The notes below the pieces were generated by a model. That model saw only the letters and a program-made list of their open reading frames with translations. It was not told where the DNA came from and did not search any database. The position numbers and the translations under genes are program-made. A stretch of 59,846 bases of DNA, from the NCBI GenBank assembly GCA_011982905.1, contig GCA_011982905.1_4767.1; one strand, 5' to 3'. Positions 8,248-24,617 of this stretch are shown piece after piece (position 1 is the first letter of the stretch; each line of letters starts with the position of its first letter). This DNA comes from a phage.

Positions 8248-8656
8248 AATGCCAGGATGGCAGACACGTTTATTAACCACAGTAAAGGAGTTGGCATCGA
8301 CTCCTTTTTCTTGGGGCGAAAACGATTGCTGTACGTTTGCCGCTAAATGTGTTGATGCACAATACAACACAAATATTTATAATCAGATAGCAGGTAAATA
8401 TAGCACAGAGCTTGGAAGCAAGAGATTCTCAATTGAAAAAGTCGGGACAGCTTATCTTCCAACCTTGCTTGACGCTTACCTGAGTGAGCGTGTTGATAAG
8501 AACTTTGCACAAAGAGGAGATGTGGTTACATTTGAGGGAGCATTGGGCTTAACTGCTGGCATATTATGGACGGGATATGTATGGGCTATGGGTCCGAACG
8601 GTGTGGAAACATTCCCGCTTAATAAGATCAAAATTACGGATATTTGGAGGGTCTAA
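8222..8656 (+). CDS. tail tip assembly protein (lambda K-like, papain/NlpC-like motif)
   Basis: ATG at 8222 preceded by GGGGGAG; the tracked ORF from 8072 is probably an upstream extension; ENDCCTF motif suggests an NlpC/P60-type fold. Confidence 0.45.
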   Translation: MRQDSRMSKMPGWQTRLLTTVKELASTPFSWGENDCCTFAAKCVDAQYNTNIYNQIAGKYSTELGSKRFSIEKVGTAYLPTLLDAYLSERVDKNFAQRGDVVTFEGALGLTAGILWTGYVWAMGPNGVETFPLNKIKITDIWRV

Positions 8657-11295: not shown

Positions 11296-11304
11296 TCAAA
11301 TAAT

Positions 11305-11326
11305 AAACGGGGCGCATGCCCCGTTT
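11305..11326. terminator. bidirectional intrinsic terminator
   Basis: 9-bp stem AAACGGGGC / GCCCCGTTT with GCAT loop, AT/T-rich on both sides; sits between convergent genes ending at 11295 (+) and 11328 (-). Confidence 0.65.
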
Positions 11327-11327
11327 A

Positions 11328-12293
11328 TTAATACATATTTGGTATAGCTATGAGCGGTGTTGAGATCACCACGTTACGACCGGGCATTTGGAATTGTTGT
11401 CGCGAGTAGTTGCCTACCACGCGGTTTCTTGCAGCACCTACCACGTTATCTGCCATGCGAATCCCGTTCATGCGAATATGATTATAACCTCCGTTGTTCT
11501 CAATAAGCGTACCTGTGTATGCAAGTTGTATTAAGCTGTTACCAATATTTTGCCAGCCTGCGCTAAGATCTACTGTTCCGTTGAATACAAAAGGCTTCTT
11601 AACCGTGGAGAACGTAACCTGTCCCGCGCTGTTTGTCATGGTAATACCATCACCAGGCTGTGGGGGAGTGTTATTAAATATTACTAATTCCATTCCAACA
11701 GAAGCCGCTACGTCATCAATTCCACCATATGCTGCGTTGCGAACAATAATATTCGAACCATCAAAACCTACTGATACGTTAGGGTCGTTCCAGCGAGCAA
11801 ACGGAACACCACCGACAGGTAATGGCATACTGCCGTTAACCCATACGTACTGGGAATACTGACAAGTCATGAGAAAGGCTGCGTTGGATATTGCTGTGAA
11901 GTCCGTGGAGTTAGCCACAAATAGACCCTCGTTTCGCGTTCCTACCGGTAGCAGTTCCATAATCACCCCTGCCCATTGCGGCAGTCCGCTATAGGCACCC
12001 AGTCCGTCCGCACCTCGCAACGTCACCCCACCGTTACCGTTTCGAGTTACAGACGTTACATACATTGGATCAGGGATAACTAGCGTCTGATCAAATACTT
12101 CCAGTACTTCAACTGGGTTAGTCATAATAACGACATGCTGCGATCCTGGCGTCAGAGGTGTATTGATGGTTAGTGTTTTGTCAGATTGACATCGCTGATT
12201 GAAGTTAGCGCAAAAAGACGGGGCTCTCAATCCTGCTGTTATTTGCATTGCAGGTCTACCGTCATTGTAGTTTATATAAATACCCTCTGGCAT
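11328..12293 (-). CDS. hypothetical beta-rich protein encoded antisense within the tail module
   Basis: ATG at 12293 preceded by GGAG; 321 aa, Gly/Asn/Thr/Val-rich; own divergent promoter region and convergent terminator. Confidence 0.5.
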   Translation of the reverse strand: MPEGIYINYNDGRPAMQITAGLRAPSFCANFNQRCQSDKTLTINTPLTPGSQHVVIMTNPVEVLEVFDQTLVIPDPMYVTSVTRNGNGGVTLRGADGLGAYSGLPQWAGVIMELLPVGTRNEGLFVANSTDFTAISNAAFLMTCQYSQYVWVNGSMPLPVGGVPFARWNDPNVSVGFDGSNIIVRNAAYGGIDDVAASVGMELVIFNNTPPQPGDGITMTNSAGQVTFSTVKKPFVFNGTVDLSAGWQNIGNSLIQLAYTGTLIENNGGYNHIRMNGIRMADNVVGAARNRVVGNYSRQQFQMPGRNVVISTPLIAIPNMY

Positions 12294-12417
12294 AATTACT
12301 CCAACAATGTGGTTAAAGATGATAGACAATATTGTTTTATATTCTAATTTAATTTACCATATTTATATGCCATAGTGCATCCATTAATTGATCAACTCTG
12401 CGAAACAAGAGGTAAAA

Positions 12418-14526
12418 ATGGCAACTCGTTTATATGGTATTCTGAAGGATGGTTTAAATAAACCGATTGTTAACGCTACCGTCGCCCTTTTAGCAAAAGG
12501 GAACACAATTACCGTTCTTAATGGTAGTGAGGCTGTATTTCGTACAGACGGAGAAGGTTCCTATAATGTAACTGTGCAAGCAGGGCATTACAAAGTGATC
12601 ATTGGACCACAGGGTCTTGAGCCTTATAAAGCTGGTGAGATAGTTATTTATTCCGACAGCCCTGAAGGTTCGCTAAACGGATATTTAATCAACTGGGCTC
12701 CGGAAGAATTAACTCCGGACGTTATCAAACAAGTCCAGCAACTTGTGGCTAACTCTGAAGAATATGCTCTGCAAGCTGGTCGCTCTGCTGCCGCAGCAAA
12801 CGCAGATGCTACGGACGCTCGCAATAGTAAGGCTTCCGCTGCTCAATCTGCTTCGGATGCACTTGTCTATAAAAATGATGCCAAAGCTAGCGAAGACGCT
12901 GCTAAACAAGCACAAGCTGGAGCTGCTGGTTCTGCTAACACTGCGACCCAAGCTGTAACCACAATTCAAGGTCTTAAATCTGACGTTGAGCAGTTAAAAA
13001 CAGATACACAGGGTATTAAGAATAGCGCAGTAACGGAAACTACCGCGCTAAAAGACGCTGCTGCTGCTTCAGCTACGCAAGCAAGTAATAGTGCTACCGA
13101 AGCAGGACAACAAGCTGGTAACGCGGCTGGTAGCGCAAATAGCGCTAAGGGCGACGCGGACCGTGCAAAGGCAGAAGCAGACCGTGCGGAAGTTGCAGCT
13201 AACAGGGCCCCGGATCTTCAACCTTTCCCTGACGTATGGATTCCATTTAATGACTCGCTTGATATGCTTGCAGGTTACTCGCCAGGGTATAAGAAAATAA
13301 CAGTTGGTGAAGATGTTATTACAATGCCTTCTGATAAGGTTGTTAGTTTCTCGCGTGCGTCAAATGCAACATACATAAATAAGCATGGTGAATTTTGCAT
13401 TGCTAATATCGATGAACCTAGATTTGAAAAGCAAGGACTCTTGATTGAAGGCCAGAGGACAAACCACATAACTTACAGCAATGACCCAGCGTCATTGAAT
13501 AGTGATAAGCATCGTAGCGACGTTACCTACGGTATCGATAAATATGGATTTACCTATAGTACCGCAACCGCAAATGAAAACGGTCAAGGTGATACACCTT
13601 CACTATTTTATTGCGAATACAATAACAACATATATTGTGAACAGAACGAATACGCAACCTTATCTATTAGAGTAAAAGCGAGTAATATTTCCATAATTCC
13701 TCAATTCTATGCGTTAGGAGAAGATAATGCCCTTATTCTTGTTGTAAGATCTATAGTGTCGTGCGACACAGGGGAGGTGACATCTACACTCGAAGCTAGA
13801 GGAACCGTAACACACAGAATTATCAAAGAAGATAACGGATGGCTGAAGGTTGAAATAATATGTAAATTTTCCGATATTGCAGGTGCTATGATTGGGAGTA
13901 TTAACTATGCCCGCGGCTCTAACGGGGATAACGTGCAAGTTGGGGATACAATATCATTTTGTACTCCGCAATTTGAAAAGGGTTTTTGTGCATCCTCCTT
14001 CATTATTACGGGAAGCACGCCTGCAACAAGGGCTCTGGATTATGTTACTATACCTGCAAGAAATAATTTCTCAGGAACGAATATTTCATTCCTTGCTGAG
14101 GTAAGTATTAACTGGGATAGCTTTGAATTAGTTAATACATACCCGATGATAATGGATAACAGTAAATATAATATAGCAGGGGAATCTTTTGTATCGGAGA
14201 TGTTTATGGCTACAAGAGTGCCTAGCGTTTACTTTTTAAATAAGGAAACTGGACGTTCTACAGGCTCAAACGGAGCTTCATTTAGTGGTGTTGGCATCCC
14301 CTCCGTATGGGGTTTTATACATACAAAAAACGGGGATGTAACATCGTTTTTGAATGGTTTTAAGAATATAACATCCTCCGGTTCAACGTGGGAAGGACTA
14401 TCTCCGGATTCCTTGCTGGAGATAGGCGGTAGACCTTCCGATTCAACTAAATTATATGGACACATACGAAACCTTAGAATATGGAATCGAGTATTAACGG
14501 ATAGTCAAATGAGGGAGAAAGTTTAA
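12418..14526 (+). CDS. side tail fibre (lambda Stf-like N-terminus, LamG-like C-terminal domain)
   Basis: ATG at 12418 with AAGAGG RBS; N-terminal ~90 aa resemble the lambda Stf N-terminus (GILKDG..KP..N.T); Ala/Ser-rich collar; C-terminus ends LRIWNRVLTDSQM, typical of a concanavalin/LamG-like jelly roll. Confidence 0.8.
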   Translation: MATRLYGILKDGLNKPIVNATVALLAKGNTITVLNGSEAVFRTDGEGSYNVTVQAGHYKVIIGPQGLEPYKAGEIVIYSDSPEGSLNGYLINWAPEELTPDVIKQVQQLVANSEEYALQAGRSAAAANADATDARNSKASAAQSASDALVYKNDAKASEDAAKQAQAGAAGSANTATQAVTTIQGLKSDVEQLKTDTQGIKNSAVTETTALKDAAAASATQASNSATEAGQQAGNAAGSANSAKGDADRAKAEADRAEVAANRAPDLQPFPDVWIPFNDSLDMLAGYSPGYKKITVGEDVITMPSDKVVSFSRASNATYINKHGEFCIANIDEPRFEKQGLLIEGQRTNHITYSNDPASLNSDKHRSDVTYGIDKYGFTYSTATANENGQGDTPSLFYCEYNNNIYCEQNEYATLSIRVKASNISIIPQFYALGEDNALILVVRSIVSCDTGEVTSTLEARGTVTHRIIKEDNGWLKVEIICKFSDIAGAMIGSINYARGSNGDNVQVGDTISFCTPQFEKGFCASSFIITGSTPATRALDYVTIPARNNFSGTNISFLAEVSINWDSFELVNTYPMIMDNSKYNIAGESFVSEMFMATRVPSVYFLNKETGRSTGSNGASFSGVGIPSVWGFIHTKNGDVTSFLNGFKNITSSGSTWEGLSPDSLLEIGGRPSDSTKLYGHIRNLRIWNRVLTDSQMREKV

Positions 14527-14804: not shown

Positions 14805-16565
14805 ATGACTACTTATACTAATATTCCTCAGGACATTACAAAGCTTAAATTCGAAAAGATGGATAAAAGTAATAACTTATCTGATCTTGCGGACCGTGCC
14901 GCTGCGTGGTTAAACGTTCGACCAATTGGGTCTACACCCTTAGCTGGGGACCCCGTTAGCGATTATGATGCAACAACTAAACGTTGGGTAGAGAACCTGA
15001 TTAACACAGGTACAGTTGGTCCAACAATGAACGGGGTGATGAATTACGGGGTAGGGGATTTCCATCTTCGGGATAGTCGTGCATATATACAACCGTATGA
15101 AGTGGTCGCTGACGGTCAATTGCTTAATCGCGCTGACTGGCCTGAATTATGGAATTACGCTCAAATGGTGGGCGCTATAGATGATTCTGAATGGCTAGCT
15201 GATAAATTCCAGCGCGGCAAATATTCTAAGGGTGACGGAGCAACAACTTTTCGTGTCCCCGATAAAAACGGTGTTCAAGAAGGATCAGTCAGAGCGCTTT
15301 ATGGTCGTGGTGATGGCGGCGCTAGTAGTGCAAACGGACAAATATTCGAATCCGCTGCGCCTAATATTACAGGTTTTTTCACCACATATTCAGCTCAAAC
15401 CTATGGCCAGGTATTAGGTCAAACTGGTGGTTGTTTTAACGCAAACAATAATGCTTTCCCTGAAGGAAAAGGCGATGGAATCCCTCCAGGGACTACAGCT
15501 CTTGCTGGACGTTACAACACCTGTGACTTCAATGCTTCAATTTCAAGTCCAATTTACGGCGCATCCACTGATGAAATCCTTACGCGCAACTTTGTCGGTG
15601 TGTGGGTAATCCGTGCGTCAGGTGGGTTTGTTGCGGCAAATACATCATGGAGTGTAATAAACGCTGATGCTGTCAAACCTTCTTCTGGAACAATTGTAAG
15701 AGGGGGTAGTGTAAAATCAGAATACAAGATAGGTACGACTACCACACATCAAGCGTATTTGCAATCTTACGGAAAGATTGATGGATTGAGCAGCGAATCA
15801 GGGGCGGTGTTATCAAATGGTGTTCAGGAATGGGCGTTCAGTCAAGATGGTACATTACGCCTTCCAAACGCAGAATTTCAGATCGGGACATTGAGAACTG
15901 ATGGAGCGCTACAGGTTGACGCATACATACGAGCAAAAGACTTCGTTGCACAGCCGTTAAACTCTGTCGGCGTTTCTGCTATAGAAAGAAACGCCATGAG
16001 GATGATAAACTATGCAAATGTTGGTGAAGGGTATTTTATAAACTCTATAAGTGGCGATTGGTACGATGGAAGCTGGATTCTTGGTGGGATTCGCTCTGGT
16101 AGCACGTTGTTAGATAGGGCACAGCTTAATGTCTACGGAGGAAATGGATCAGCTGGGTCTTATCTTTTTGGGTCGGACGGTATAGCAAAATGTCAAGAAT
16201 GGAGAAGCTTATCTGATAAACGAATTAAAAGCAATATTGAGCGTATAGATAACCCACTATCTAAGATGAGAAACATCAAAGGCGTTAAATGGACATTGGA
16301 AACAAATGGGTCAGTTGGGTATGGATTTATTGCTCAGGATGTAGAGAAGGATTTCCCTGAAGCAGTATCCGAAACAAAGTCCTCTCCTGTTACCTTACGC
16401 AATGGTTCATCCGTGACTGATGTAAAGTCTGTAAACACTTCCGGTATAGCCGCAGCGCTACATCATGAAGCAATTCTTGCTTTGATGCAAAAAGTGGAGA
16501 ACCTAGAAGCGGAATTAGCTGCACTAAAAGAAGCGAATGGTTCACAGCAAACTAACCTTCCATAA
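14805..16565 (+). CDS. tail fibre with C-terminal intramolecular chaperone (peptidase S74-like) domain
   Basis: 586 aa; C-terminal SDKRIKSNIERIDNPL...VKWTL...GFIAQDVE motif typical of the autoproteolytic chaperone domain of phage fibres, followed by a coiled coil. Confidence 0.75.
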   Translation: MTTYTNIPQDITKLKFEKMDKSNNLSDLADRAAAWLNVRPIGSTPLAGDPVSDYDATTKRWVENLINTGTVGPTMNGVMNYGVGDFHLRDSRAYIQPYEVVADGQLLNRADWPELWNYAQMVGAIDDSEWLADKFQRGKYSKGDGATTFRVPDKNGVQEGSVRALYGRGDGGASSANGQIFESAAPNITGFFTTYSAQTYGQVLGQTGGCFNANNNAFPEGKGDGIPPGTTALAGRYNTCDFNASISSPIYGASTDEILTRNFVGVWVIRASGGFVAANTSWSVINADAVKPSSGTIVRGGSVKSEYKIGTTTTHQAYLQSYGKIDGLSSESGAVLSNGVQEWAFSQDGTLRLPNAEFQIGTLRTDGALQVDAYIRAKDFVAQPLNSVGVSAIERNAMRMINYANVGEGYFINSISGDWYDGSWILGGIRSGSTLLDRAQLNVYGGNGSAGSYLFGSDGIAKCQEWRSLSDKRIKSNIERIDNPLSKMRNIKGVKWTLETNGSVGYGFIAQDVEKDFPEAVSETKSSPVTLRNGSSVTDVKSVNTSGIAAALHHEAILALMQKVENLEAELAALKEANGSQQTNLP

Positions 16566-16581
16566 CCACATCTAACTTCTC

Positions 16582-16606
16582 AGCGCGTCTTCGGGCGCGC
16601 TTTTTA
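16582..16606 (+). terminator. intrinsic terminator
   Basis: GC-rich stem AGCGCGTC / GGCGCGCT closed by a TTCG tetraloop, followed by T5. Confidence 0.7.
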
Positions 16607-16684
16607 TTGACTGTCAATCCCAATTTACAAAATCTTTACATTTGGATCATTGTAAAAAGCATGTTAAGGGGTATGCTTTACTTC

Positions 16685-16700
16685 GTAACCAGTTGGTTAC
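16685..16700 (+). promoter_or_regulatory. operator-like palindrome GTAACCA-GT-TGGTTAC
   Basis: Perfect 7-bp inverted repeat with 2-bp spacer, 35 bp upstream of the ATG at 16735, in an AT-rich promoter-like gap. Confidence 0.35.
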
Positions 16701-16734
16701 ATCCGCTTAACAATCCATATATGGAGATCTTCCT

Positions 16735-16998
16735 ATGTCTGACATGACTCTTTTACCTACTAATCTCGGTGGCGACGGTTTCGGCGGTGAAGCTGGTGCG
16801 GCTGGTATCGGTGGCGCGATCGGTGGCTTAATTGGTTCCTGGATCGGTAATGGTTGGGGTGGCAATGGTGGTTGGGGTGGTCGCGGTAACTTCGCCGGTC
16901 CGGTGGAAGTGCAAGCTTCTATTGACACCAACGCAATTCTGCAAGCTATCAACAACGGTACTCTTCAGACCATTCAGGGCAGAACGGTACTAACCTGA
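16735..16998 (+). CDS. glycine-rich small protein with possible double-glycine leader (MSDMTLLPTNLGG)
   Basis: 87-aa ORF with GGAGA RBS; residues 12-52 are Gly/Ala/Trp-rich (GGDGFGGEAGAAGIGGAIGGLIGSWIGNGWGGNGGWGG); flanked by promoter-like region and terminator-like hairpin. Confidence 0.45.
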   Translation: MSDMTLLPTNLGGDGFGGEAGAAGIGGAIGGLIGSWIGNGWGGNGGWGGRGNFAGPVEVQASIDTNAILQAINNGTLQTIQGRTVLT

Positions 16999-17120
16999 CT
17001 GTTGAGCGCTCCGCTGCTTCTACCTATAACGGTATTACTCAGCAGAACACTCAAAACCTACTGGCTTCCGTTCAGGGCTTTGCTGGTCTGAACACGCAGA
17101 TCCAGGGTGGCACCAGCCAA

Positions 17121-17441
17121 GTGCTCGCGGCTCTGTGTAACAACGAAGCAGCTAACATTACCCGTTCCTTCCAGGCGCAGCTAGAAGCTCAGAAGTGTTG
17201 CTGCGAAACCAACCTGAACATCGAGCGTCAAGCAGAAGCTACTCGTGCGCTCCTGCGCGATCAGCACGCACAGGCGCAAGCAGTTCTGATCTGTGACCTG
17301 AAATCTCAGTTGCAGGAAGCTCGCTTTGCAAACTCTCAGTTGGCACAAACGGCTGGTCTTACTTGTAAGATCAATCAGGTTGAGCAGTTAGTTAACTTTA
17401 AACTGCCAACTCCTCCGACTCCTCCGACTGGCTGCTGCTAA
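17121..17441 (+). CDS. Cys-containing Gln-rich ORF (GTG start; possibly continuous with upstream ORF)
   Basis: This frame is open from 16926, overlapping the 3' end of the 16735 ORF in the -1 frame, with no ATG before the GTG at 17121; contains CCC and C-terminal PTPPTPPTGCC. Confidence 0.35.
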   Translation: MLAALCNNEAANITRSFQAQLEAQKCCCETNLNIERQAEATRALLRDQHAQAQAVLICDLKSQLQEARFANSQLAQTAGLTCKINQVEQLVNFKLPTPPTPPTGCC

Positions 17442-17463
17442 TCGTTGAAGTGTGGTTAAACTA

Positions 17464-17498
17464 AAGCGCCTTTCGCTCCTCCGCTTGGGGCGCTTTTA
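17464..17498 (+). terminator. terminator-like hairpin
   Basis: AAAGCGCC ... GGCGCTTTT with an 18-nt loop, followed by T-tract, then the RBS of the next gene. Confidence 0.4.
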
Positions 17499-17512
17499 AC
17501 AGAGGTACTATC

Positions 17513-17881
17513 ATGAGCCACATTAAAATTGCAACGATGGGAATGCCACGGGTCAAATTGCCTAAGGTTGCTTTACCTTGCATTAGCGTAGGTGAGCACC
17601 ACCATGAACATAAGAAAGAGGAATATAAACATGCTCACTCTTATGCTCGAGATCATGAACATATGGCAGCTATGTCAAATGTTCTTGACCGGATGGAAGA
17701 ACCTCCGCATACGTGGGCGGCGTACCACGACAAGCCCGGTGGTATGATGTCCATTGTTGAAATGGAATACCGCGAATTAATGGAGTGTAAGAAAGAAGGC
17801 GACCGCGCAGGGATCATGAAAGAGTTGACTGATCTTGCCGCAGCTTGTACTTGTGCTCTTCAAAAAATGAAAGATATGTAA
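17513..17881 (+). CDS. hypothetical protein, His-rich N-terminus, MazG-like NTP pyrophosphohydrolase motifs
   Basis: 122 aa; EMEYRE ... KELTDL spacing resembles the EExxE...ExxD pattern of all-alpha NTP pyrophosphatases; N-terminal HHHEH..H cluster. Confidence 0.3.
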   Translation: MSHIKIATMGMPRVKLPKVALPCISVGEHHHEHKKEEYKHAHSYARDHEHMAAMSNVLDRMEEPPHTWAAYHDKPGGMMSIVEMEYRELMECKKEGDRAGIMKELTDLAAACTCALQKMKDM

Positions 17882-17896
17882 GAATAGGAAGCCGAC

Positions 17897-18427
17897 ATGC
17901 AAAACGTAAACGCAGGAATGGGCGTAACCCAGTTCAACGGGATGAAACCGAAAAACTCCATCAACATGGGCGGTGTTGATTGGACGTTACGTCGGGACGC
18001 TACCGATTCAACTACCATGTTCCCACACCAGAAGGTAAGCTGGCTTAATGCTGGCTGTGAACCTATGGGTGATGGAAGGGTTCATTACTGTTGGATTATG
18101 GGAGTGATACCGCCTACGCCGGGCACTATCGAACGACCCGTGAATGTGATGTATGTCGGCTTCCACCAGTTCAAGATCACAATTGCTCCAAACTCCATTA
18201 GTCAGTCAGATCTTGATCGTATGCATGTTTACGTCAGCGATGGTACAGACTTCGCAGGGGATTTTATTAGTAAGTTTCTTGGTATGCAACCAGAGCAGCC
18301 TGTAGAAGCACGCGAGCATATTAGCCCGTGGCCACCCATGATTGATCAGGAAGTGCTGCAACCAAAGACCGCTCAAACGGTCCCTCAGAAACCGGAGCAG
18401 AAGGTGAAACCAAATGACGAAGAATGA
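17897..18427 (+). CDS. hypothetical protein
   Basis: 176-aa ORF with AGGAAG RBS. Confidence 0.45.
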   Translation: MQNVNAGMGVTQFNGMKPKNSINMGGVDWTLRRDATDSTTMFPHQKVSWLNAGCEPMGDGRVHYCWIMGVIPPTPGTIERPVNVMYVGFHQFKITIAPNSISQSDLDRMHVYVSDGTDFAGDFISKFLGMQPEQPVEAREHISPWPPMIDQEVLQPKTAQTVPQKPEQKVKPNDEE

Positions 18428-18698
18428 AGGTATTGATAAAGTCGTTGAAGGGCTTTCTATTCGTGCCCATGTTATAGCAGACGAAGGTCATGATCAACTT
18501 ACAATTATGAAATCTGCATTCAGCGATTTTAAGTCTCTTGGAAACTTAAGCGGGTTAATGACTGTGGTGTCGACCGGAAAATTAACCCAGCAGCAAATCA
18601 GTCTAGCTCAGCGTATTGCTGTTAAAGTTATTGCGGTACTTGGGATGATTGAAGCTGAAAAGCCCAGTTCCAAGCAGGATAACGAAAGCGACCTTTAA
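18414..18698 (+). CDS. hypothetical protein
   Basis: 94-aa ORF overlapping the upstream stop. Confidence 0.4.
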   Translation: MTKNEGIDKVVEGLSIRAHVIADEGHDQLTIMKSAFSDFKSLGNLSGLMTVVSTGKLTQQQISLAQRIAVKVIAVLGMIEAEKPSSKQDNESDL

Positions 18699-18709
18699 GG
18701 AGGTCTACT

Positions 18710-18913
18710 ATGTGTGGTAATACTAACCGTTGCTGTCTAGGCAGTCCTGCAACACAAGTAGGTATACTTCAGGGGCAATTGGCTCAAGCAGCGTGTAATT
18801 GCAAAACTTTTCAACCAGTAGCGCCAACTCCTGTGTTTGTGAATGCTTTTGCACCGCCTGTTTTCAATACTTTTGGCGTATACCCATACGGTGCTTTCTT
18901 TCGTATATTCTAA
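18710..18913 (+). CDS. small Cys-rich protein with aromatic C-terminus
   Basis: 67 aa; strong TAAGGAGGT RBS; shares a QLAQ.A..CK...PTP segment with the 17121 ORF. Confidence 0.45.
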   Translation: MCGNTNRCCLGSPATQVGILQGQLAQAACNCKTFQPVAPTPVFVNAFAPPVFNTFGVYPYGAFFRIF

Positions 18914-18920
18914 GAAGAGA

Positions 18921-18942
18921 AAAAGGGGCGTTTGCCCCTTTC
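18921..18942. terminator. bidirectional intrinsic terminator at strand switch
   Basis: Stem AAGGGGC / GCCCCTT with GTTT loop, A/T tracts on both sides; between convergent blocks. Confidence 0.65.
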
Positions 18943-18943
18943 T

Positions 18944-19225
18944 TTAACGCTTATGAAAAGCTGACAGGATTGCAAGTGTTACAGCACCCAATCCAACGAC
19001 GGTAGCATAAGTGAGTTGGTGTTGAACTTTAACAAAGCCATAATAGGTGCTAGGGATGTCTACAATCCCAAACGCCATAGCAAAGCTGGTCCCAAGTAGT
19101 GCTACAGCAAGGGCGCGTAATAACGCCCTGCTCATTGCTGTAAAGCCCTTCTCATTACTATCTCCGGTCATTATAACAACAATGATTAGAAATAGCGAAA
19201 CGACAACTAATAGATATTCCATCAT
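18944..19225 (-). CDS. small membrane protein (about 3 TM segments)
   Basis: 93 aa; AGGAG RBS; hydrophobic stretches LLVVVSLFLIIVVIM, ALAVALLGTSFAMAFGIV, VVGLGAVTLAIL. Confidence 0.5.
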   Translation of the reverse strand: MMEYLLVVVSLFLIIVVIMTGDSNEKGFTAMSRALLRALAVALLGTSFAMAFGIVDIPSTYYGFVKVQHQLTYATVVGLGAVTLAILSAFHKR

Positions 19226-19428
19226 TTGCGTCTCCTGTACATGTATTGATCATACGCGGTCGCAATAATAGTGACTGGCCAGCAAGCGAGTATACATAGA
19301 AGACTTACAATCTTCTCCCAACGTTTCTTATGGGCTAGCGCATAATCATAGTTATTCCAACAAAAGAAATAAGTCATTGCTGCAATAACTGCACCAATTA
19401 CAAAATACATAACCACATATTCATGCAT
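19222..19428 (-). CDS. small membrane protein (2 TM segments)
   Basis: 68 aa; GGGAG RBS; two hydrophobic helices; basic C-terminus. Confidence 0.5.
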   Translation of the reverse strand: MHEYVVMYFVIGAVIAAMTYFFCWNNYDYALAHKKRWEKIVSLLCILACWPVTIIATAYDQYMYRRRK

Positions 19429-19609
19429 CGGTAAACTCCCAAATCAGATTATAATTATTTCCCGCTGGTACATATCGCCCTGGACGTGGATCGAAGCTTT
19501 TCACTGAAAACTCCAGCGTTCCGGCGCTATATAGTTGCACCTTTTGTCCGTCCCACGGTCCACCTATCAATTTAAAAGTCTGTCGATAACCTTTTGCAGC
19601 TTTAGCCAT
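19421..19609 (-). CDS. hypothetical small protein
   Basis: 62 aa; AAGGAG RBS. Confidence 0.45.
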   Translation of the reverse strand: MAKAAKGYRQTFKLIGGPWDGQKVQLYSAGTLEFSVKSFDPRPGRYVPAGNNYNLIWEFTDA

Positions 19610-19651
19610 GCTCGCTCCTTAAATACCCGCGCGAACGCGGGTATTATTTTA

Positions 19652-19858
19652 TTACGCTTCCGGTGTTTCCGGTGATGGTTCATCAGGAACAACAATAACA
19701 TCGGCTAAAACTTTCAACGCTTCTTGTTGCTCCGCTGTCATATTATTCCAGTAATAGACGTGAATGTAAACTACTGGTTTGTCACCATGTTGCCACGGTT
19801 CGCGACTTACTACATCCGCAGCTAAATCGCTTGCTACGCTCTTTTCTTTACCAGCCAT
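19652..19858 (-). CDS. hypothetical small acidic protein
   Basis: 68 aa; AAGGGG RBS. Confidence 0.45.
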   Translation of the reverse strand: MAGKEKSVASDLAADVVSREPWQHGDKPVVYIHVYYWNNMTAEQQEALKVLADVIVVPDEPSPETPEA

Positions 19859-20036
19859 GCTAATGTACCCCTTTAAGGTTTTACACGCGGCTAACCCCCA
19901 AAAGTACCCATATGATCAAGGGTTCTAATGCGCTGCTCCAGCCAACGTGCGTTCTTTTCAAAATGTTTATTGGTACGCGCTGCTTTGCACGCATCAATAA
20001 TACCTAACTCACATCCAAGCTGCGTTTGTCCCATCA

Positions 20037-20183
20037 CTAAGAATGGGTTAACATGCTGGATACAAGCTCTTCACATTGTAACTTAATAGGATGGTCTTGG
20101 CATAGTTTCTTTGCTGCATCTTTTAAATCCACAGCTTGGACACCAGGCGCTATCAGCAAAGTTACGAGTAATAAACGTTTCAT
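20037..20183 (-). CDS. small secreted protein (signal peptide, two Cys)
   Basis: 48-codon ORF not in the supplied track (below its size cut-off); MKRLLLVTLLIAPGVQA signal-like N-terminus; AAGGGA RBS; TAATG overlap with the upstream gene. Confidence 0.35.
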   Translation of the reverse strand: MKRLLLVTLLIAPGVQAVDLKDAAKKLCQDHPIKLQCEELVSSMLTHS

Positions 20184-20467
20184 TATGCTTTCCCTTTACG
20201 ACATAAGGCTTGAAGTTCCAGAAGCGCATCAATGTCTTCCTGTGGAGTTACACCAACGTGAATTGGATATTTAGCGCGGCATTCGTTGCCAACTTCAACA
20301 GTGTGGTTAATGTAGCCGTAAACACATCCACCAATAACAGTGAAGATAAGCGCAACAATCATTGTAAGGTACTTACCTTGTTTGCGTTCTTCATTTTGTT
20401 TATTAAGCTGACGGTTAAGTTCCACCGCGTCAATTTTACCTTTATTGTAATCGTCTACTAAGCTCAT
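20183..20467 (-). CDS. membrane-anchored protein (single TM)
   Basis: ATG at 20467 preceded by GAGGAG; 94 aa; central TM segment YLTMIVALIFTVIGGCVYGYI. Confidence 0.45.
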   Translation of the reverse strand: MSLVDDYNKGKIDAVELNRQLNKQNEERKQGKYLTMIVALIFTVIGGCVYGYINHTVEVGNECRAKYPIHVGVTPQEDIDALLELQALCRKGKA

Positions 20468-20531
20468 TTTGTATCTCCTCTTGTTGTATGTATATATTAA
20501 AACAGACCCGCGAAGGGTCTGCAAGTAGAAT

Positions 20532-22517
20532 TTAGGCGTATCCCATGTCTTCGAGATACTTCTCTGCTTTAGCTATATAAGCATCATAATCTATGTCGTC
20601 CGGTACTTTATCCGGTAGCGTCATGATCGGGACACCTCCCGCGCTACCAGCTACACGGTTGCCCGAGTTAGCATAGATTATTTCAGGTGTTTCTTCATTA
20701 GTGCTTAAGTACCAGCGTACAACCTTACCCAAAAATTCGCCATTCCATACCGCGCCGCCTTTTACCGCACGTAGGATAATGAATTTTCTAATATCGTTGC
20801 AATTGCGTATAGTACGAGAAACAGGCGTACCGTGGGCCAAACATTCACATACAGCTTCCATAATAATCTCACCAGTACAGTTCTTTTGAAGACCTGTCTT
20901 TGCGAACCACCCTTTACGCTTAATTTCAACATTTCCTTCCTCGTCAGGTTCTTTTACTGCAACATAGTTATTGACGTTAGCACTGTACAGCTTGTCATAG
21001 TAGTTGGATTCCATTTCAAAACCTGTTACGGATTCCCACCACTTGATCATATTATCAACGAAGTCCTGCATATGGTCCGGATACTTAACCACAATACCAT
21101 CCGTGTTAGCTGAAATTACTTTAACTCCGTTCAGCTCAAACGCTTCAATAAGCATTAACAGCGATAACTGTCCAGTTAATGTAACTTGTATCAATAATTG
21201 CGGAGCGTACAGTACGGACCACATAGACCCCAGCTTACCGAACGATCCGTTGATTACGATCTTCAGAGTATTGGCTGTGTTCTTGTCCCCTGAGTGTTTA
21301 GCTGCAATACGGCGGTCTACAATGCTTTTATAAACACGAAGAAACGCTGGTCCCAACTGCTCAGGGTATAAACCCTGATTAAGAATAATTGAAGGGTAAT
21401 AAGACGTTACGTCAATGTCCCGCTTCTTAATACCCGGCTCTTTACCGTGCCCAGCACACTCTTCTGAGCTATGCAAACCACCAATACCCATACGGTAGAC
21501 ACCGTCCGCAATCTTGATTTCAAGACCTGTTAACGCTGGGGGTAAGCTAACGCCACCGTTATCGCTAACAACAAAACGGCAGTCCCGAACAATATCCAAA
21601 ACACTATTCATCAGAGGTGTTTGAAAACGAATAAAGTCCGGTATGTTATATGCATACTTTGTTCCAGGATAAACTTGTGGGCGCTGCGGACGCACACCAG
21701 TTAACGCTTGAATTTCGTGTTTAATTACGTCTTCTGCAATCTGCGCATCAGAACGTGAACGCAGATCCACACCGTATTCTTGCGACATAATTTCACGAAG
21801 GTGCAAAGGTTCTTGTAATGCAATAAAACATTCTTCTGTCTGTACAAGGTCGTTAATACAGTACCAGCGTACAATTAACATCTGGTCCTGCGTCAACATG
21901 GTATTTGGTTTGAACGGTAAATCCTGCATACGACGAGTATGTACTCGTCCGCCGTATTGTTTCAAACCGCCGGACCCAGGCAGCACTTCCATAATATCGA
22001 TGTGGTTAACGTTCTGCATACGCTTGAGACGGTAACTCTTCAATACATCCGAAGGACGCCAGTCTTCAACGATTATTTTATCGGTCGCGTCTTTAAGCTG
22101 TGCATTAGAACAGCCGTTAAGCGCTAGCGTAGCAATGGGCATATCGTACCCGTTACCGTTAAAGCTCACGATAAGGAAGTTTGTCATTACCCAGTTAAGT
22201 AGCAAACAATTCAAACTACAACCATGATACATTTCGAAGTAGACAACTTTCTTAGTCCTTACTCCGCGGAATGCGATCAAGAAGTAGTTTGGATAACATT
22301 CGATATCGTATACAAGCGGTTCGCGGTTAATCCATGCTTGAATAAGTTCGTCCTGTGTGTACAGGTTGTATTGGAAGTTCCGCGCTTCCTCAAGGTTAGG
22401 CAAATAATCCGGGCGCTCCCAAGTGCGCTCCGGCGGTAAACGTTTAACCTTTTCTTTCTTTGCTTTTGGCTCAGGCGGTAAGTCCTGCCAAAAGAAACCA
22501 ATAGCATCTGTCCGCAT
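20532..22517 (-). CDS. DNA polymerase, family B
   Basis: ATG at 22517 overlaps the upstream stop (TAATG); exonuclease motif YDIECY; polymerase motifs DVTSYYPSII (motif A), KIVINGSFGKLG (motif B) and NTDG (motif C). Confidence 0.85.
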   Translation of the reverse strand: MRTDAIGFFWQDLPPEPKAKKEKVKRLPPERTWERPDYLPNLEEARNFQYNLYTQDELIQAWINREPLVYDIECYPNYFLIAFRGVRTKKVVYFEMYHGCSLNCLLLNWVMTNFLIVSFNGNGYDMPIATLALNGCSNAQLKDATDKIIVEDWRPSDVLKSYRLKRMQNVNHIDIMEVLPGSGGLKQYGGRVHTRRMQDLPFKPNTMLTQDQMLIVRWYCINDLVQTEECFIALQEPLHLREIMSQEYGVDLRSRSDAQIAEDVIKHEIQALTGVRPQRPQVYPGTKYAYNIPDFIRFQTPLMNSVLDIVRDCRFVVSDNGGVSLPPALTGLEIKIADGVYRMGIGGLHSSEECAGHGKEPGIKKRDIDVTSYYPSIILNQGLYPEQLGPAFLRVYKSIVDRRIAAKHSGDKNTANTLKIVINGSFGKLGSMWSVLYAPQLLIQVTLTGQLSLLMLIEAFELNGVKVISANTDGIVVKYPDHMQDFVDNMIKWWESVTGFEMESNYYDKLYSANVNNYVAVKEPDEEGNVEIKRKGWFAKTGLQKNCTGEIIMEAVCECLAHGTPVSRTIRNCNDIRKFIILRAVKGGAVWNGEFLGKVVRWYLSTNEETPEIIYANSGNRVAGSAGGVPIMTLPDKVPDDIDYDAYIAKAEKYLEDMGYA

Positions 22518-23470
22518 TAGACACGTTCTCCAATTAATACACCGCGAAGATTTTCCCCAAAGAATGCGCAAGGTTGCGGATATAAACTAAAGTCCGCAGT
22601 CTTAACCACATTCTCGAGTAATAACAGGATGTCGATATTGTAAACTCCCGTTATTGATCTGTCCTGCAATACGAAGCTTGCACCTTCTGCATCATCGTAA
22701 TGAGTACGCGCTAGACCGTTTTCAATATATACGCGAGGACGATCTTCCGCAAAAGGTTTGATTTTATGCAAGCCCTCAAAAAGACCTGGATCAACAGGAT
22801 GTGCATTGCATTGAACATTTAAAATACGACGTATATCGGGCCACTCCGCATCAATAAGCTGTGTCCGCAACCAGCGACCTTCCGGATAATGAAACGTTAC
22901 ATTATTCTTACTAACCTGAATATGTGTCGGGTTAGCCTTAATGCGCAATATTTCTTTAATTGCAACGGAAGGTATTATGCAGTCTATAGGGAACTGATTG
23001 CCGAACCAGTATTCCGCAATGGTGACGTTATTTGTAGCAAACAGGCTACCGTTATTAATTAGGATGCCACAAGCCCACGCACGAGATGCATCCGAGCCTA
23101 CAAACGGAGCAACGGACTTCACACCATGAACGAAGCGAGCACCGTCTATTTCGTACAAATCGCCTTCAGGGAATACATGCGGAGTTTCTTTATCGATGCA
23201 GCGTATAGCAACACGAAACGGGCCTGACTTAATATTCAGCTTACCGTTAGCCATCATTGTTAGCTGCACTGTTTCATCGCAGTTTGAAATAGCCTTGATC
23301 ATTGGACCCGCTTCGGGCTTACAATCAATATCCAGCTCAATAGGGCTACCCAGTGCAATAACACCGTTAAAGCCTTGTACCTGCCCGTCACGAATAAGAA
23401 AACTGGTAAGCCCTTCTACCAGTTCTTTCTTTGCTACTGAGCCTTGAACAAATTTAAGAGCGTCTAACAT
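22517..23470 (-). CDS. DnaN-like sliding clamp homologue (putative processivity factor)
   Basis: 317 aa; LIDAEWPDIRRIL matches the conserved VDGRFPDYRRVLP segment of bacterial beta clamps as recalled; lies immediately upstream of the polymerase. Confidence 0.5.
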   Translation of the reverse strand: MLDALKFVQGSVAKKELVEGLTSFLIRDGQVQGFNGVIALGSPIELDIDCKPEAGPMIKAISNCDETVQLTMMANGKLNIKSGPFRVAIRCIDKETPHVFPEGDLYEIDGARFVHGVKSVAPFVGSDASRAWACGILINNGSLFATNNVTIAEYWFGNQFPIDCIIPSVAIKEILRIKANPTHIQVSKNNVTFHYPEGRWLRTQLIDAEWPDIRRILNVQCNAHPVDPGLFEGLHKIKPFAEDRPRVYIENGLARTHYDDAEGASFVLQDRSITGVYNIDILLLLENVVKTADFSLYPQPCAFFGENLRGVLIGERV

Positions 23471-23697
23471 TAGCGATCCTCGATTGCTCTAATTGTGGTT
23501 AAGTCTAATTCACAGGTTGGAGGTGATCCATAAAGCCCTATTTGTCTTCCTTGCGCATTAAACCATGTACCGGACTGATCTTTCCATTGCTTAGGGGTCT
23601 TGTGGAGGAATACAACTCTGTTTTCACCGTAGTAATTAATTCTCACTCCTTTGTGAGTGTATTTACGTTTACCTTTTGGTCTTCTTAAGTTAGCCAT
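23470..23697 (-). CDS. hypothetical small basic protein
   Basis: 75 aa, between clamp-like gene and dpdA. Confidence 0.4.
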   Translation of the reverse strand: MANLRRPKGKRKYTHKGVRINYYGENRVVFLHKTPKQWKDQSGTWFNAQGRQIGLYGSPPTCELDLTTIRAIEDR

Positions 23698-24617
23698 CAG
23701 AACAACTCCATTACACGATCACGGAACGTGCCGTCATGGGTAGCATTAATATTTGCAGCAATTACACCATACGCCCATAAATTGAAGGCAGCACGTGATT
23801 CATAGATTGTTGATAACCGTTCGTAAGTAAAACCGTTTTGCTCAAGGTATTTAAGGACAGCATCCTGTTCAATTTCAGTTAGCGTTGAAACATGCTTACC
23901 AAAATGATGGCGGTCTGGTGACTTATCGGACACGCGCATTGGGCCCCACGGAGGAGTAACCACACTTCCAAACGCTGCCGCTTGAATCCAGGAGGATGAG
24001 TCACAGCTATACCACGGATAACGCTCCATGATGGTAGTGGACGTAATACCAAATGCATGAAGCTTAATCTTAGGACGACCGCTACCGTCGCAAATGTATT
24101 TGTCCCACATGCGGTCCAGCCAAGTTTTAAGCGTGCCCGTTGAACGCCCTACCATGCCCCCGATCGTGATATATTCGTAGTTCTTCATGTAATATTCAAG
24201 ATAGCGGAAGTCCTCACCAAAGTGAAAGCACGGTAACGGTTTAGCACCGCGTGCTTCCATTTCAAGCTGATTACGGTATGTTTGCAGCGGATCACCAATA
24301 CCGTCGAGCACCGACGCCATTACAGCACCATCTTCTACCCGCAAAATGTCTTTATTACGCTTGATGTACTCGCAGTATTCAACAATATCAATGTGAGCAC
24401 CCAAAGAGTGCGCAGAGAATGCACCGGAGTCGAGAAACACTTTAGCGCCATCTGCACGCATTTGATCAACATACTTCTGACGCCCAACGTAGTGGTATGA
24501 TTCCAAAATATTTGGAAGGCTATTAACAATGTCTTTTTCCCGATCGTTTAACTTTTCATATCGTTGTTGACCAGCTTTATAGCCGTTGGTATATACTGCC
24601 GCTACATATAACTTCAT
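23697..24617 (-). CDS. dpdA: DpdA, tRNA-guanine transglycosylase-like DNA 7-deazaguanine transglycosylase
   Basis: 306 aa; TGT-like fold motifs (FLDSGAF, ITIGGMVG); clustered with folE-queD-queC-queE. Confidence 0.7.
   Translation of the reverse strand: MKLYVAAVYTNGYKAGQQRYEKLNDREKDIVNSLPNILESYHYVGRQKYVDQMRADGAKVFLDSGAFSAHSLGAHIDIVEYCEYIKRNKDILRVEDGAVMASVLDGIGDPLQTYRNQLEMEARGAKPLPCFHFGEDFRYLEYYMKNYEYITIGGMVGRSTGTLKTWLDRMWDKYICDGSGRPKIKLHAFGITSTTIMERYPWYSCDSSSWIQAAAFGSVVTPPWGPMRVSDKSPDRHHFGKHVSTLTEIEQDAVLKYLEQNGFTYERLSTIYESRAAFNLWAYGVIAANINATHDGTFRDRVMELF

What the first reader, a model, noticed from the sequence alone, without database searches (positions are those of the whole stretch)
18944..20467. 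Second set of envelope-directed small proteins, separate from the lysis cassette
Four to six small minus-strand genes with good RBSs encode two polytopic membrane proteins, a TM-anchored protein and a 48-aa signal-peptide protein with two Cys (20037..20183, below the track size cut-off), all translationally coupled. The canonical lysis genes lie elsewhere (51891-53329), so these are candidates for superinfection exclusion, receptor masking or another host-envelope function.
Basis: partly seen in the sequence, partly recalled or inferred. Interest (0 to 1): 0.45.

Follow-up and report, generated by a model that had tools for sequence, protein, structure and literature searches.

The report
Seuratvirus accessory operon of envelope proteins
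Downstream of the DNA polymerase gene, this E. coli phage carries a real, genus-specific, apparently dispensable six-gene operon, four of whose small proteins go to the host membrane or periplasm; their function is unknown, and the "48-aa secreted protein" is the front half of a 97-aa gene broken by a one-base deletion.

Summary
The window is a complete Seuratvirus (Queuovirinae) genome, 99% identical here to phage KurtStettler. Region 18944-20467 (minus strand) is a real operon bounded by two terminator hairpins. All its genes are under purifying selection (dN/dS 0.03-0.4).

There are six genes, not "four to six":
- gA: bitopic membrane protein.
- gB: Sec-secreted, four cysteines.
- gC and gD: soluble.
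- gE: two TM segments.
- gF: three TM segments.

All 36 related phage records encode one intact 97-aa gB. This window alone has a 1-nt deletion at 20037/20038 that splits it. Coupling holds only for gA-gB and gD-gE-gF.

The four envelope proteins occur only in Seuratvirus. The sister genus Nonagvirus has nothing at this junction. No match was found in Pfam, NCBIfam, PADLOC or PDB, and none to T4 Sp or Imm. The operon stays about 99% identical while receptor-binding modules are swapped, which argues against receptor masking.

A published gC deletion is viable, and published lysis suppression maps to neighbouring genes instead.

My best guess (about 0.3) is a receptor-independent superinfection-exclusion or envelope-conditioning module. 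This is an ordinary kind of phage feature. Interest is low to moderate.

The parts
20502..20522 (-). Terminator-like hairpin with a U-tract between the DNA polymerase stop codon and gA. It marks the upstream boundary of the operon and probably attenuates read-through.
   Evidence: Pattern scan. RNA fold -14.4 kcal/mol, z = -2.6. Annotated as a terminator in phage Seurat.
20183..20467 (-). gA, 94 aa. Bitopic inner-membrane protein: charged N-terminus (1-32, predicted cytoplasmic), TM segment about 33-52, C-terminal 42 aa predicted periplasmic with two conserved Cys (C63, C89). Strong RBS (GAGGAG).
   Evidence: Homologues only in Seuratvirus-like contigs. Both Cys are conserved in STP-SP5, yong3 and L021. 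dN/dS 0-0.4. Topology is inferred from the positive-inside rule and the Cys pattern.
19891..20183 (-). gB, a 97-aa secreted protein in all relatives: signal peptide MKRLLLVTLLIAPGVQA|VD and a mature helical protein of about 80 aa with four invariant Cys. In this window it is disrupted by a 1-nt deletion between 20038 and 20037. That gives two 48-aa ORFs: 20037-20183 (signal peptide plus 31 aa) and 19891-20037 (no RBS, no signal peptide). The start codon overlaps the gA stop (ATGA).
   Evidence: The family has only 3 further representatives among 1.8 billion proteins. AF2 model is four helices, pLDDT 51. The exact truncated product is not on record elsewhere.
19652..19858 (-). gC, 68 aa. Acidic (pI 4.4) soluble protein and homologue of CSP1_029. 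Dispensable: its deletion in phage CSP1 is viable. Absent from Hafnia phage yong3.
   Evidence: PMC13577005. The coordinate mapping of CSP1_029 onto gC is my own calculation.
19622..19645 (-). Intercistronic GC-rich hairpin between gC and gD (10 bp stem, weak U-tract on the minus strand). Possibly a partial terminator or an mRNA-stabilising or processing element. It divides the operon into gA-gB-gC and gD-gE-gF.
   Evidence: -18.3 kcal/mol, z = -2.1.
19421..19609 (-). gD, 62 aa. Basic soluble protein with a GGPWDG...GTLEFSV.SF motif and a strong RBS. It overlaps the gE start by 8 nt. It is the only member with relatives outside Seuratvirus.
   Evidence: Distant relatives occur in Vibrio, Klebsiella and Erwinia phages.
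19222..19428 (-). gE, 68 aa. Membrane protein with two TM segments and an RRRK C-terminal tail. Orientation is ambiguous. Missing in Salmonella phage STP-SP5. In yong3 it is replaced by a 98-aa version with an extra N-terminal TM segment.
18944..19225 (-). gF, 93 aa. Membrane protein with three TM segments, predicted N-out/C-in. It has an almost invariant predicted periplasmic loop, P-x-x-YYGFVK-x-QHQLTYA. It is the most constrained gene of the operon (dN/dS 0.03-0.16). Its start overlaps the gE stop (ATGA).
   Evidence: AF2 model has three helices (2-19, 28-51, 61-92), pLDDT 62.
18920..18943 (.). Strong bidirectional terminator at the point where the minus-strand replication block meets the plus-strand late block.
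   Evidence: (-15.5 kcal/mol, z = -3.2). Annotated on both strands in phage Seurat.

Best explanation
SHOWN. Region 18944-20467 is a six-gene accessory operon found only in Seuratvirus. It sits at the distal end of the leftward replication and DNA-modification transcription unit, between the DNA-polymerase terminator and the convergent terminator. It delivers four small proteins to the host envelope:
- a translationally coupled pair, gA (membrane-anchored, C-terminus predicted periplasmic) and gB (Sec-secreted); both carry conserved cysteines suited to periplasmic disulfides;
- a coupled pair of small integral membrane proteins, gE and gF.
It also encodes two small soluble proteins, gC and gD. 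In this genome gB is interrupted by a 1-nt deletion, so gB is probably a pseudogene here, or the base call is wrong.

INFERRED. Transcription would come by read-through from the replication genes, that is, early or middle in infection. I infer that the envelope proteins condition the periplasm and inner membrane of the already infected cell. The most likely role is a receptor-independent, post-adsorption block to secondary infection or protection of the envelope. This has the logic of T4 Imm/Sp or HK97 gp15, but without homology to them. gA-gB would act in the periplasm. gE-gF would act in the inner membrane.
For: - The genes are real and constrained: dN/dS 0.03-0.4 for all six.
- Targeting: hydropathy, an AXA signal peptide and conserved Cys pairs in the predicted periplasmic parts.
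- gA-gB adjacency with an ATGA overlap is kept at every divergence level seen: STP-SP5, yong3, L021 and L022.
- The operon is accessory. Nonagvirus JenP2 has no genes between the polymerase and the convergent block. The families are confined to contigs of about 60 kb, the size of Seuratvirus genomes.
- Individual genes are dispensable or variable: gC deletion is viable (PMC13577005); gC is absent in yong3 and gE in STP-SP5; gB is frameshifted here.
- The operon is independent of receptor type. It is 96-99% identical between phages with different tail-tip and receptor-binding modules and is present in LamB-using CSP1.
- Positional parallel: in T4, imm.1 and imm lie directly downstream of DNA polymerase gene 43 on the same strand, and sp lies in the primase/helicase cluster. 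Early expression alongside replication genes is therefore the known pattern for exclusion genes of a virulent phage.
Against: - There is no experimental datum on any envelope member.
- There is no similarity to any characterised exclusion protein. hhalign of the gB profile against T4 Sp gives probability 9.5%, confined to the signal peptide. gE and gF against T4 Imm give 0.3%.
- Pfam, NCBIfam and PADLOC give only sub-threshold noise, and PHROGs returns only unknown-function families.
- The structure models are too poor to use (pLDDT 51 and 62), and Foldseek found nothing below E = 1.
- Expression timing is inferred from gene position only. No sigma-70-like promoter was found directly upstream of gA.
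- Purifying selection and envelope targeting fit several other roles equally well.
- gC and gD are soluble, so the operon may not be one functional unit.
Confidence: 0.3

Rival explanations
1. Lysis-timing accessory. gE (68 aa, two TM segments, basic tail) and gF (three TM segments, predicted N-out/C-in) would act as holin-like or antiholin-like modulators. The periplasmic gA-gB pair would act as a sensor or regulator of the holin. Together they would tune when the canonical cassette at 51.9-53.3 kb fires.
For: - The size and topology of gE and gF resemble class II and class I holins (the resemblance is from my own knowledge of holin classes).
- Seuratvirus CSP1 does have lysis suppression encoded away from its lysis cassette (PMC13577005).
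- Over a well-aligned 7.7-kb block, only two indels separate this window from KurtStettler. Both are 1-nt deletions that break envelope-protein genes: gB, and the orthologue of the holin-binding CSP1_021. This pattern could reflect selection for clear or fast plaques.
- T4 sp mutants are annotated as rapid-lysis.
Against: - In CSP1, lysis suppression maps to CSP1_020-022.
- The clear-plaque mutant CSP1C keeps the whole gA-gF operon intact yet has lost suppression.
- The three genes CSP1_020-022 plus holin and endolysin reproduce suppression from plasmids without gA-gF.
- Deleting the gC homologue does not change turbidity.
- No holin or antiholin family matches in Pfam or PHROGs.
Confidence: 0.15
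2. Host take-over. The small membrane proteins would bind and inhibit, or redirect, host inner-membrane or periplasmic machinery such as the divisome, cell-wall synthesis, transporters, the proton motive force or proteases. This would optimise the infected cell, as small bitopic phage proteins that block cell division do.
For: - The genes lie in the early/middle replication transcription unit.
- The predicted periplasmic loop of gF and the motifs of gA and gB are strongly conserved, which suggests specific conserved host partners.
- The operon does not co-vary with receptor type, as expected if the target is a conserved host component.
- CSP1-infected cells elongate (PMC13577005).
Against: - There is no homology to any known host-takeover protein.
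- In CSP1 the elongation is attributed to delayed lysis, not to these genes.
- The sister genus does without the operon, and single genes are lost or broken in individual isolates.
Confidence: 0.2
3. Counter-defence. The envelope proteins would neutralise membrane-associated or envelope-sensing host immunity, or would prevent progeny from being lost on cell debris.
For: - The operon is an accessory, genus-specific, variable gene set at a junction of transcription units, a typical place for anti-defence genes.
- Queuovirinae differ in their sensitivity to defence systems (PMC8594841).
Against: - No PADLOC or Pfam link was found.
- Conservation across isolates is high (93-99%), unlike the rapid turnover usual for anti-defence loci.
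- Known exclusion or debris-protection proteins of related siphophages are thought to lie at the receptor-binding locus and to co-vary with it. This operon does not co-vary.
Confidence: 0.1
4. The frameshift in gB, and the one at about 16977, are base-calling or assembly errors. In that case the phage carries an intact 97-aa gB like all its relatives.
For: - All 36 related records have intact gB.
- The exact truncated product is not on record in any other assembly.
- The second deletion lies in or next to a G-run (GGGG or GGGT has become GGG), and a third lies in an A-run. Homopolymers are typical sites of sequencing error.
Against: - The gB deletion (TTATG to TTAG) is not in a homopolymer.
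- The large structural and replication ORFs (DNA polymerase, tape measure, large terminase, portal) are open at full length.
- Real frameshifts in this operon are documented in other isolates: CSP1_029 in CSP1 and the altered gB C-terminus in SLUR25.
Confidence: 0.4

Closest known systems
T4 Spackle (Sp, gp61.3), the periplasmic superinfection-exclusion protein
   Same: Same length (97 aa). Cleavable N-terminal signal peptide. Small cysteine-containing periplasmic protein (helical in the low-confidence gB model). Encoded among early replication genes of a virulent coliphage.
   Different: No homology: hhalign probability is 9.5% and covers the signal peptide only. gB has four invariant Cys in a different spacing. 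gB is always paired with the membrane protein gA, and Sp has no adjacent membrane partner in the T4 annotation. This siphophage is not known to have a tail lysozyme like T4 gp5, the target of Sp (own knowledge). gB is broken in this genome.
T4 Imm (immunity to superinfection), a small inner-membrane protein
   Same: Small polytopic inner-membrane protein: Imm is 83 aa; gE is 68 aa and gF 93 aa. It lies immediately downstream of the DNA polymerase gene on the same strand.
   Different: No sequence or profile similarity (hhalign probability 0.3%). No match to any Pfam family. The function of gE and gF is untested.
HK97 gp15-type moron exclusion proteins, which block DNA entry at the inner membrane (own knowledge, not tested here)
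   Same: Small bitopic membrane protein with a periplasmic C-terminus, like gA. Accessory gene. Would act after adsorption and independently of the outer-membrane receptor, which matches the lack of co-variation with the receptor-binding module.
   Different: HK97 is temperate and expresses gp15 from the prophage. PHROGs gave no exclusion-annotated family for gA.
Cor/Llp-type receptor-blocking lipoproteins of T1-, T5- and Rtp-like siphophages
   Same: Small envelope-targeted phage proteins that prevent re-infection or loss of progeny on debris.
   Different: Those are lipoproteins. They are thought to be encoded next to the receptor-binding protein and to co-vary with it (PMC8594841; Rtp annotation). 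gB has no lipobox. The operon is far from the receptor-binding locus (11.3-12.4 kb) and does not change when that locus is swapped.
CSP1_020-022 lysis-suppression (antiholin-like) genes of Seuratvirus CSP1
   Same: Same phage genus. Envelope-related accessory genes located away from the lysis cassette, only 1-3 kb from this operon on the opposite strand.
   Different: They are different genes, on the plus strand at 14805-17881 in this window. Genetic mapping and plasmid reconstitution assign lysis suppression to them, not to gA-gF.

Membership tests
T4 Spackle (Sp) family | Detectable sequence or profile homology to T4 gp61.3 | tested here: not met
   hhalign of the 7-sequence gB profile against T4 Sp gives probability 9.5%; the aligned part is the signal peptide plus the first Cys only. 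Sequence and profile searches of PDB, which I would expect to hold Spackle structures (own knowledge), found nothing at E <= 10.
T4 Spackle (Sp) family | Secreted to the periplasm through a cleavable signal peptide | tested here: inconclusive
   An n-h-c signal region with an AXA site is conserved in all homologues, though with divergent sequence. No dedicated predictor and no experiment were available. In this window only the first 31 mature residues would be exported.
T4 Spackle (Sp) family | Binds and inhibits the tail-associated lysozyme of the incoming phage | not testable with these tools
   Needs biochemistry. I did not search this genome for a tail lysozyme.
T4 Imm family (Pfam Imm_superinfect) | Sequence or profile match to Imm | tested here: not met
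   No Pfam hit at E <= 1 to any exclusion family for gE or gF. hhalign against T4 Imm gives probability 0.3%.
Holins / antiholins | Match to a holin or antiholin family, or location in the lysis cassette | tested here: not met
   No holin family was matched in Pfam or PHROGs. The lysis cassette with its own 114-aa holin lies at 51.9-53.3 kb. In CSP1, lysis suppression maps elsewhere.
Holins / antiholins | Small size, 1-4 TM segments, charged C-terminal tail | tested here: met
   gE is 68 aa with two TM segments and an RRRK tail. gF is 93 aa with three TM segments and an HKR tail. These features are generic and not sufficient for membership.
Cor/Llp receptor-blocking lipoproteins | Lipobox (L-x-x-C) signal peptide, and a gene adjacent to and co-varying with the receptor-binding protein | tested here: not met
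   The gB signal peptide ends in VQA|VD with no Cys at position +1. The operon is 7 kb from the receptor-binding locus and is unchanged between phages with different receptor-binding modules.
Two-component spanins (Rz/Rz1-like) | A type II membrane protein plus an outer-membrane lipoprotein, located in the lysis cassette | tested here: not met
   gA has type II topology, but gB is not a lipoprotein. A canonical i-spanin/o-spanin pair exists at 52690-53329, with a lipobox in the o-spanin (LMICAGC).
Known anti-phage defence or exclusion proteins in PADLOC | Profile match | tested here: not met
   Only a noise-level ZorA hit for gF (E = 0.13, 9 bits).

The most novel reading that the evidence does not exclude
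The conserved, translationally coupled gA-gB pair would be a new two-component periplasmic exclusion system of virulent siphophages. gA is a membrane-anchored, disulfide-bonded periplasmic stub. gB is a secreted protein with four cysteines (helical in a low-confidence model). The pair would intercept a receptor-independent step of DNA delivery, for example tape-measure or tail-tip insertion into the periplasm and inner membrane. gE-gF would be its inner-membrane arm. The natural gB frameshift in this isolate would then be a ready-made loss-of-function allele.
Probability: 0.15. Interest if true: 0.55.

Novelty: new variant of a known kind. Interest (0 to 1): 0.28.

Why it matters
Clusters of small envelope-targeted accessory genes are common in phages and rarely understood. 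If this one proved to be a receptor-independent exclusion or envelope-conditioning module, three things would follow:
- It would add sequence-novel families to a short list of characterised systems, mostly from T4, T5, HK97 and P22.
- It would give a handle on how siphophage DNA crosses the periplasm.
- It would matter for designing phage cocktails, because Seuratviruses are frequent E. coli isolates.

The practical result for annotation is more certain. The 48-aa "secreted peptide" should not be called a gene. This genome carries two frameshifted accessory envelope genes, and both should be checked against the reads.

As it stands, the finding is a conserved set of genes with no relatives outside the genus and no functional evidence. 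That is an ordinary situation in phage genomes.

Tried and rejected
1. Family scans of all six proteins. Pfam, NCBIfam and PADLOC gave only sub-threshold noise. PHROGs gave only unknown-function families. One weak hit of gB to phrog_1256, 'valyl tRNA synthetase modifier' (E = 1.5e-3, residues 1-56), I attribute to the signal peptide and did not follow further.
2. PDB sequence and profile searches for gB found nothing at E <= 10.
3. Deep homology searches:
 - gB, 4 hits among 5.8 billion clusters and 3 representatives among 1.8 billion;
 - gF, 14 hits;
 - gA, 9 hits;
 - IMG/VR, 3 loci.
 All are Seuratvirus-like, so there was no leverage from distant relatives.
4. AlphaFold2 gave pLDDT 51 for gB and 62 for gF. 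Both are too low for fold comparison. A Foldseek run of the gB model against BFVD gave nothing below E = 1. I ran no further search on these models.
5. Direct tests of the T4 Sp and Imm analogy by hhalign were negative.
6. A lysis role is contradicted by the CSP1/CSP1C genetics.
7. Receptor masking is contradicted by the lack of co-variation with the receptor-binding module.
8. Horizontal-transfer signature: the GC content of the operon (0.40-0.46) does not differ from its flanks.
9. Non-coding RNA: Rfam gave only noise, E about 0.8.
10. A sigma-70 promoter for the operon: none was found upstream of gA. One promoter-like site lies inside gC (19770-19742), but such matches are fewer than expected by chance.
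11. One literature search for Seuratvirus transcriptomics was swamped by the 'Seurat' software name and gave nothing. Searches for exclusion in Queuovirinae gave nothing on these genes.
Full report
IDENTITY OF THE WINDOW

The 59.8-kb window is a complete genome of a Seuratvirus (Queuovirinae), a virulent E. coli siphophage with dPreQ0-modified DNA. Region 18700-20700 is 99.1% identical to phage KurtStettler (Bas22) and 92-98% identical to 33 other records, including Seurat, CAjan, slur01, Greed and CSP1C. In all of them the stretch is annotated as six or seven hypothetical proteins downstream of the DNA polymerase gene.

ANATOMY

On the minus strand, the DNA polymerase gene (20532-22571) ends in a terminator-like hairpin at 20502-20522. 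Six genes follow:
- gA, 20183-20467, 94 aa
- gB, 19891-20183, 97 aa in relatives
- gC, 19652-19858, 68 aa
- a GC-rich hairpin at 19622-19645
- gD, 19421-19609, 62 aa
- gE, 19222-19428, 68 aa
- gF, 18944-19225, 93 aa

A strong bidirectional terminator at 18920-18943 closes the operon, where the leftward block meets the rightward late block.

All six genes have Shine-Dalgarno sequences. gA/gB and gE/gF overlap as ATGA, and gD/gE overlap by 8 nt. gB-gC and gC-gD are separated by 32 and 42 nt. So there are coupled sub-units (gA-gB and gD-gE-gF), not one fully coupled string.

Pairwise Nei-Gojobori dN/dS against nine relatives is 0.03-0.40 for every gene. gF is the most constrained. These are real protein-coding genes. 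GC content is the same as in the flanks, and Rfam finds nothing.

THE 48-AA ORF IS AN ARTEFACT

In Seurat, KurtStettler and every one of 36 records found by tblastn, 19891-20183 is one uninterrupted 97-aa ORF. The window has 293 nt instead of 294: TCTTATGTGATGG has become TCTTAGTGATGG. This creates TAG at 20039-20037. What remains is the signal peptide plus 31 residues, followed by a second 48-aa fragment that has no ribosome-binding site and no export signal.

Over a well-aligned 7.7-kb block (16787-24511), only two indels separate the window from KurtStettler. Both are 1-nt deletions in the window, and both break an accessory envelope-protein gene. The other one, at about 16976-16979, splits the orthologue of CSP1_021/JenP2 gp26 into 16735-16998 and 17121-17441.

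The exact truncated gB product is not on record in any other assembly. I cannot decide between a real mutation and a sequencing error:
- For a real mutation: the gB site is not a homopolymer, and the large structural and replication ORFs (DNA polymerase, tape measure, large terminase, portal) are open at full length.
- For an error: the second site lies in or next to a G-run.

Real frameshifts in this operon do occur in other isolates. CSP1 has one in its gC homologue, and SLUR25 has an altered gB C-terminus.

THE PROTEINS

The segments below come from hydropathy analysis. Topologies are my inference from the positive-inside rule and the cysteine patterns.

- **gA.** A charged N-terminal 32 residues (predicted cytoplasmic), one TM segment, and a 42-residue C-terminal part with two Cys. 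Both Cys are conserved in STP-SP5, yong3 and a divergent metagenomic homologue. I infer an N-in/C-out bitopic protein with a periplasmic disulfide.
- **gB.** A canonical signal peptide (MKR, hydrophobic core, VQA|VD) and a mature protein of about 80 aa. It has four invariant Cys and a conserved Y-x-x-G-x-x-x-x-x-C-E-x-G-x-x-x-A-C core. There is no lipobox. The AF2 model is four helices but has pLDDT 51.
- **gC.** Acidic and soluble.
- **gD.** Basic and soluble.
- **gE.** Two TM segments. A basic loop and a basic tail make its orientation ambiguous.
- **gF.** Three TM segments, predicted N-out/C-in, with a nearly invariant predicted periplasmic loop. AF2 gives three helices, pLDDT 62.

So four of the six proteins are envelope-directed.

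DISTRIBUTION

- gA, gB and gF have homologues only in Seuratvirus-like contigs of about 60 kb.
- An exhaustive profile search of 1.8 billion representatives found only three further gB relatives.
- The order polymerase - gA - gB, with the ATGA overlap, is kept in Salmonella phage STP-SP5, Hafnia phage yong3 and two divergent metagenomic contigs.
- gC is absent from yong3.
- gE is absent from STP-SP5 and has an extra TM segment in yong3.
- The sister genus Nonagvirus (JenP2) has no gene at all between the polymerase and the convergent block.
- Only gD has relatives elsewhere: other Queuovirinae of Vibrio and Klebsiella, and Erwinia phage AH03. In AH03 it is again overlapped by a small protein with two TM segments.

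The envelope set is therefore a genus-specific accessory insertion at a junction of transcription units.

WHAT IS KNOWN EXPERIMENTALLY

The only functional study of a Seuratvirus that touches this area is Kim and Ryu 2025 (PMC13577005). Turbid-plaque 'lysis suppression' in CSP1 needs three genes: CSP1_020 (tail fibre), CSP1_021 (a membrane protein that binds the holin) and CSP1_022. These lie on the opposite strand, just upstream of the operon.

Several results bear on the operon:
- The three genes plus holin and endolysin reproduce suppression from plasmids.
- The clear-plaque mutant CSP1C keeps gA-gF intact.
- CSP1_029, which by coordinates corresponds to gC, is frameshifted in CSP1.
- CSP1_029 can be deleted without changing plaque turbidity.

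This argues against a required role of the operon in that lysis phenotype, and it shows that gC is dispensable.

TESTS AGAINST KNOWN FAMILIES

- Pfam, NCBIfam, PADLOC and PDB sequence or profile searches gave nothing. PHROGs returned only unknown-function families.
- The obvious analogy is T4 Spackle. It is also 97 aa, is exported to the periplasm through a signal peptide, and is encoded among replication genes. The analogy fails the homology test (hhalign 9.5%, signal peptide only).
- gE and gF do not resemble T4 Imm (0.3%).
- One positional parallel stands: in T4, imm.1-imm follow DNA polymerase gene 43 directly on the same strand.
- Cor/Llp-type receptor blockers are excluded. There is no lipobox, and the operon is not at the receptor-binding locus.
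- The operon is about 99% identical between this phage and KurtStettler although their receptor modules differ. This phage has an Rtp45-like receptor-binding protein at 11328-12329. KurtStettler has a longer J-like protein with a different downstream gene. The operon is also present in LamB-using CSP1.

INTERPRETATION

Shown:
- This is a real, constrained, genus-specific and individually dispensable operon.
- It encodes a coupled membrane-anchor/secreted pair, a coupled pair of small integral membrane proteins, and two soluble proteins.
- gB is broken in this genome.

Inferred: the operon is expressed by read-through from the replication unit, and it acts on the periplasm and inner membrane of the infected cell.

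Among the possible roles, I rank them as follows:
- a receptor-independent, post-adsorption exclusion or envelope-protection function, about 0.3;
- host take-over, 0.2;
- lysis timing, 0.15;
- counter-defence, 0.1.

None of these is supported by direct evidence. Its 'receptor masking' option is the least compatible with the data.

VERDICT

This is an ordinary kind of phage feature: a cluster of accessory membrane proteins found nowhere outside the genus. It has some value as a candidate for new exclusion families and as an annotation correction. Interest is 0.28.

Noticed in passing
window 16735-17441 (+), deletion at about 16976-16979: A second 1-nt deletion (GGGG in CAjan or GGGT in KurtStettler has become GGG) splits the orthologue of CSP1_021/JenP2 gp26 into 87-aa and 106-aa ORFs. 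That gene encodes a 235-238-aa glycine-rich membrane protein reported to bind the holin and to be required for lysis suppression. If the deletion is real, this isolate should be a clear-plaque, fast-lysing variant.
   Followed up: partly
window 16711 and 59143: Two further single-base deletions lie in intergenic sequence: AAA has become AA relative to CAjan, and one base is missing from a hairpin loop relative to KurtStettler. Together with the two frameshifts, this raises the question of indel errors in the assembly.
   Followed up: partly
window 8644-12329: The receptor-recognition module differs from that of the closest relative. Here an 883-aa J-like protein is followed by a minus-strand 333-aa Rtp45-like receptor-binding protein. 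That protein is 99% identical to the one in phage SA126VB and 33-77% to those of Rtp, Dhillonvirus and Drexlerviridae phages. KurtStettler has a 987-aa J-like protein and a 77-aa minus-strand gene instead. No small lipoprotein gene was seen beside the receptor-binding gene in this window.
   Followed up: partly
L018 (Erwinia phage AH03) 1305-2355; L019; L020: gD-like proteins (GGPxDG...GT(L/M)xFx(V/I)xSY) occur in unrelated phages. In AH03 the gD-like gene is overlapped by a 67-aa gene with two TM segments and lies near a 101-aa signal-peptide protein. That echoes the gD-gE arrangement here. In Vibrio phage 83AMN it follows a 2.4-kb gene directly.
   Followed up: partly
L017 (T4) 10374-13894: In T4, imm.1 and imm lie immediately downstream of DNA polymerase gene 43 on the same strand. 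This is the same relative position as gA-gF here. It may be coincidence.
   Followed up: no
L009 (SLUR25) 1481-1783; CSP1 position 24,140 (PMC13577005): Other isolates also carry indels in this operon. SLUR25 and SLUR63 gB have a shifted C-terminus (100 aa). CSP1 has a frameshifted gC homologue (59 aa instead of 68 aa), and its clear-plaque derivative CSP1C has the canonical 68-aa form.
   Followed up: partly
window 19742-19770 (-): A sigma-70-like promoter match (TTTACA, 17-nt spacer, TG-AATAAT; 10 of 12 positions) lies inside gC and points towards the hairpin and gD-gE-gF. Such matches are fewer in this region than expected by chance, so it may mean nothing.
   Followed up: no
window 18710-18913 (+): The last gene of the convergent plus-strand block encodes a 67-aa cysteine-rich protein (MCGNTNRCC...C.C...). 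It is conserved in relatives and has no annotation.
   Followed up: no
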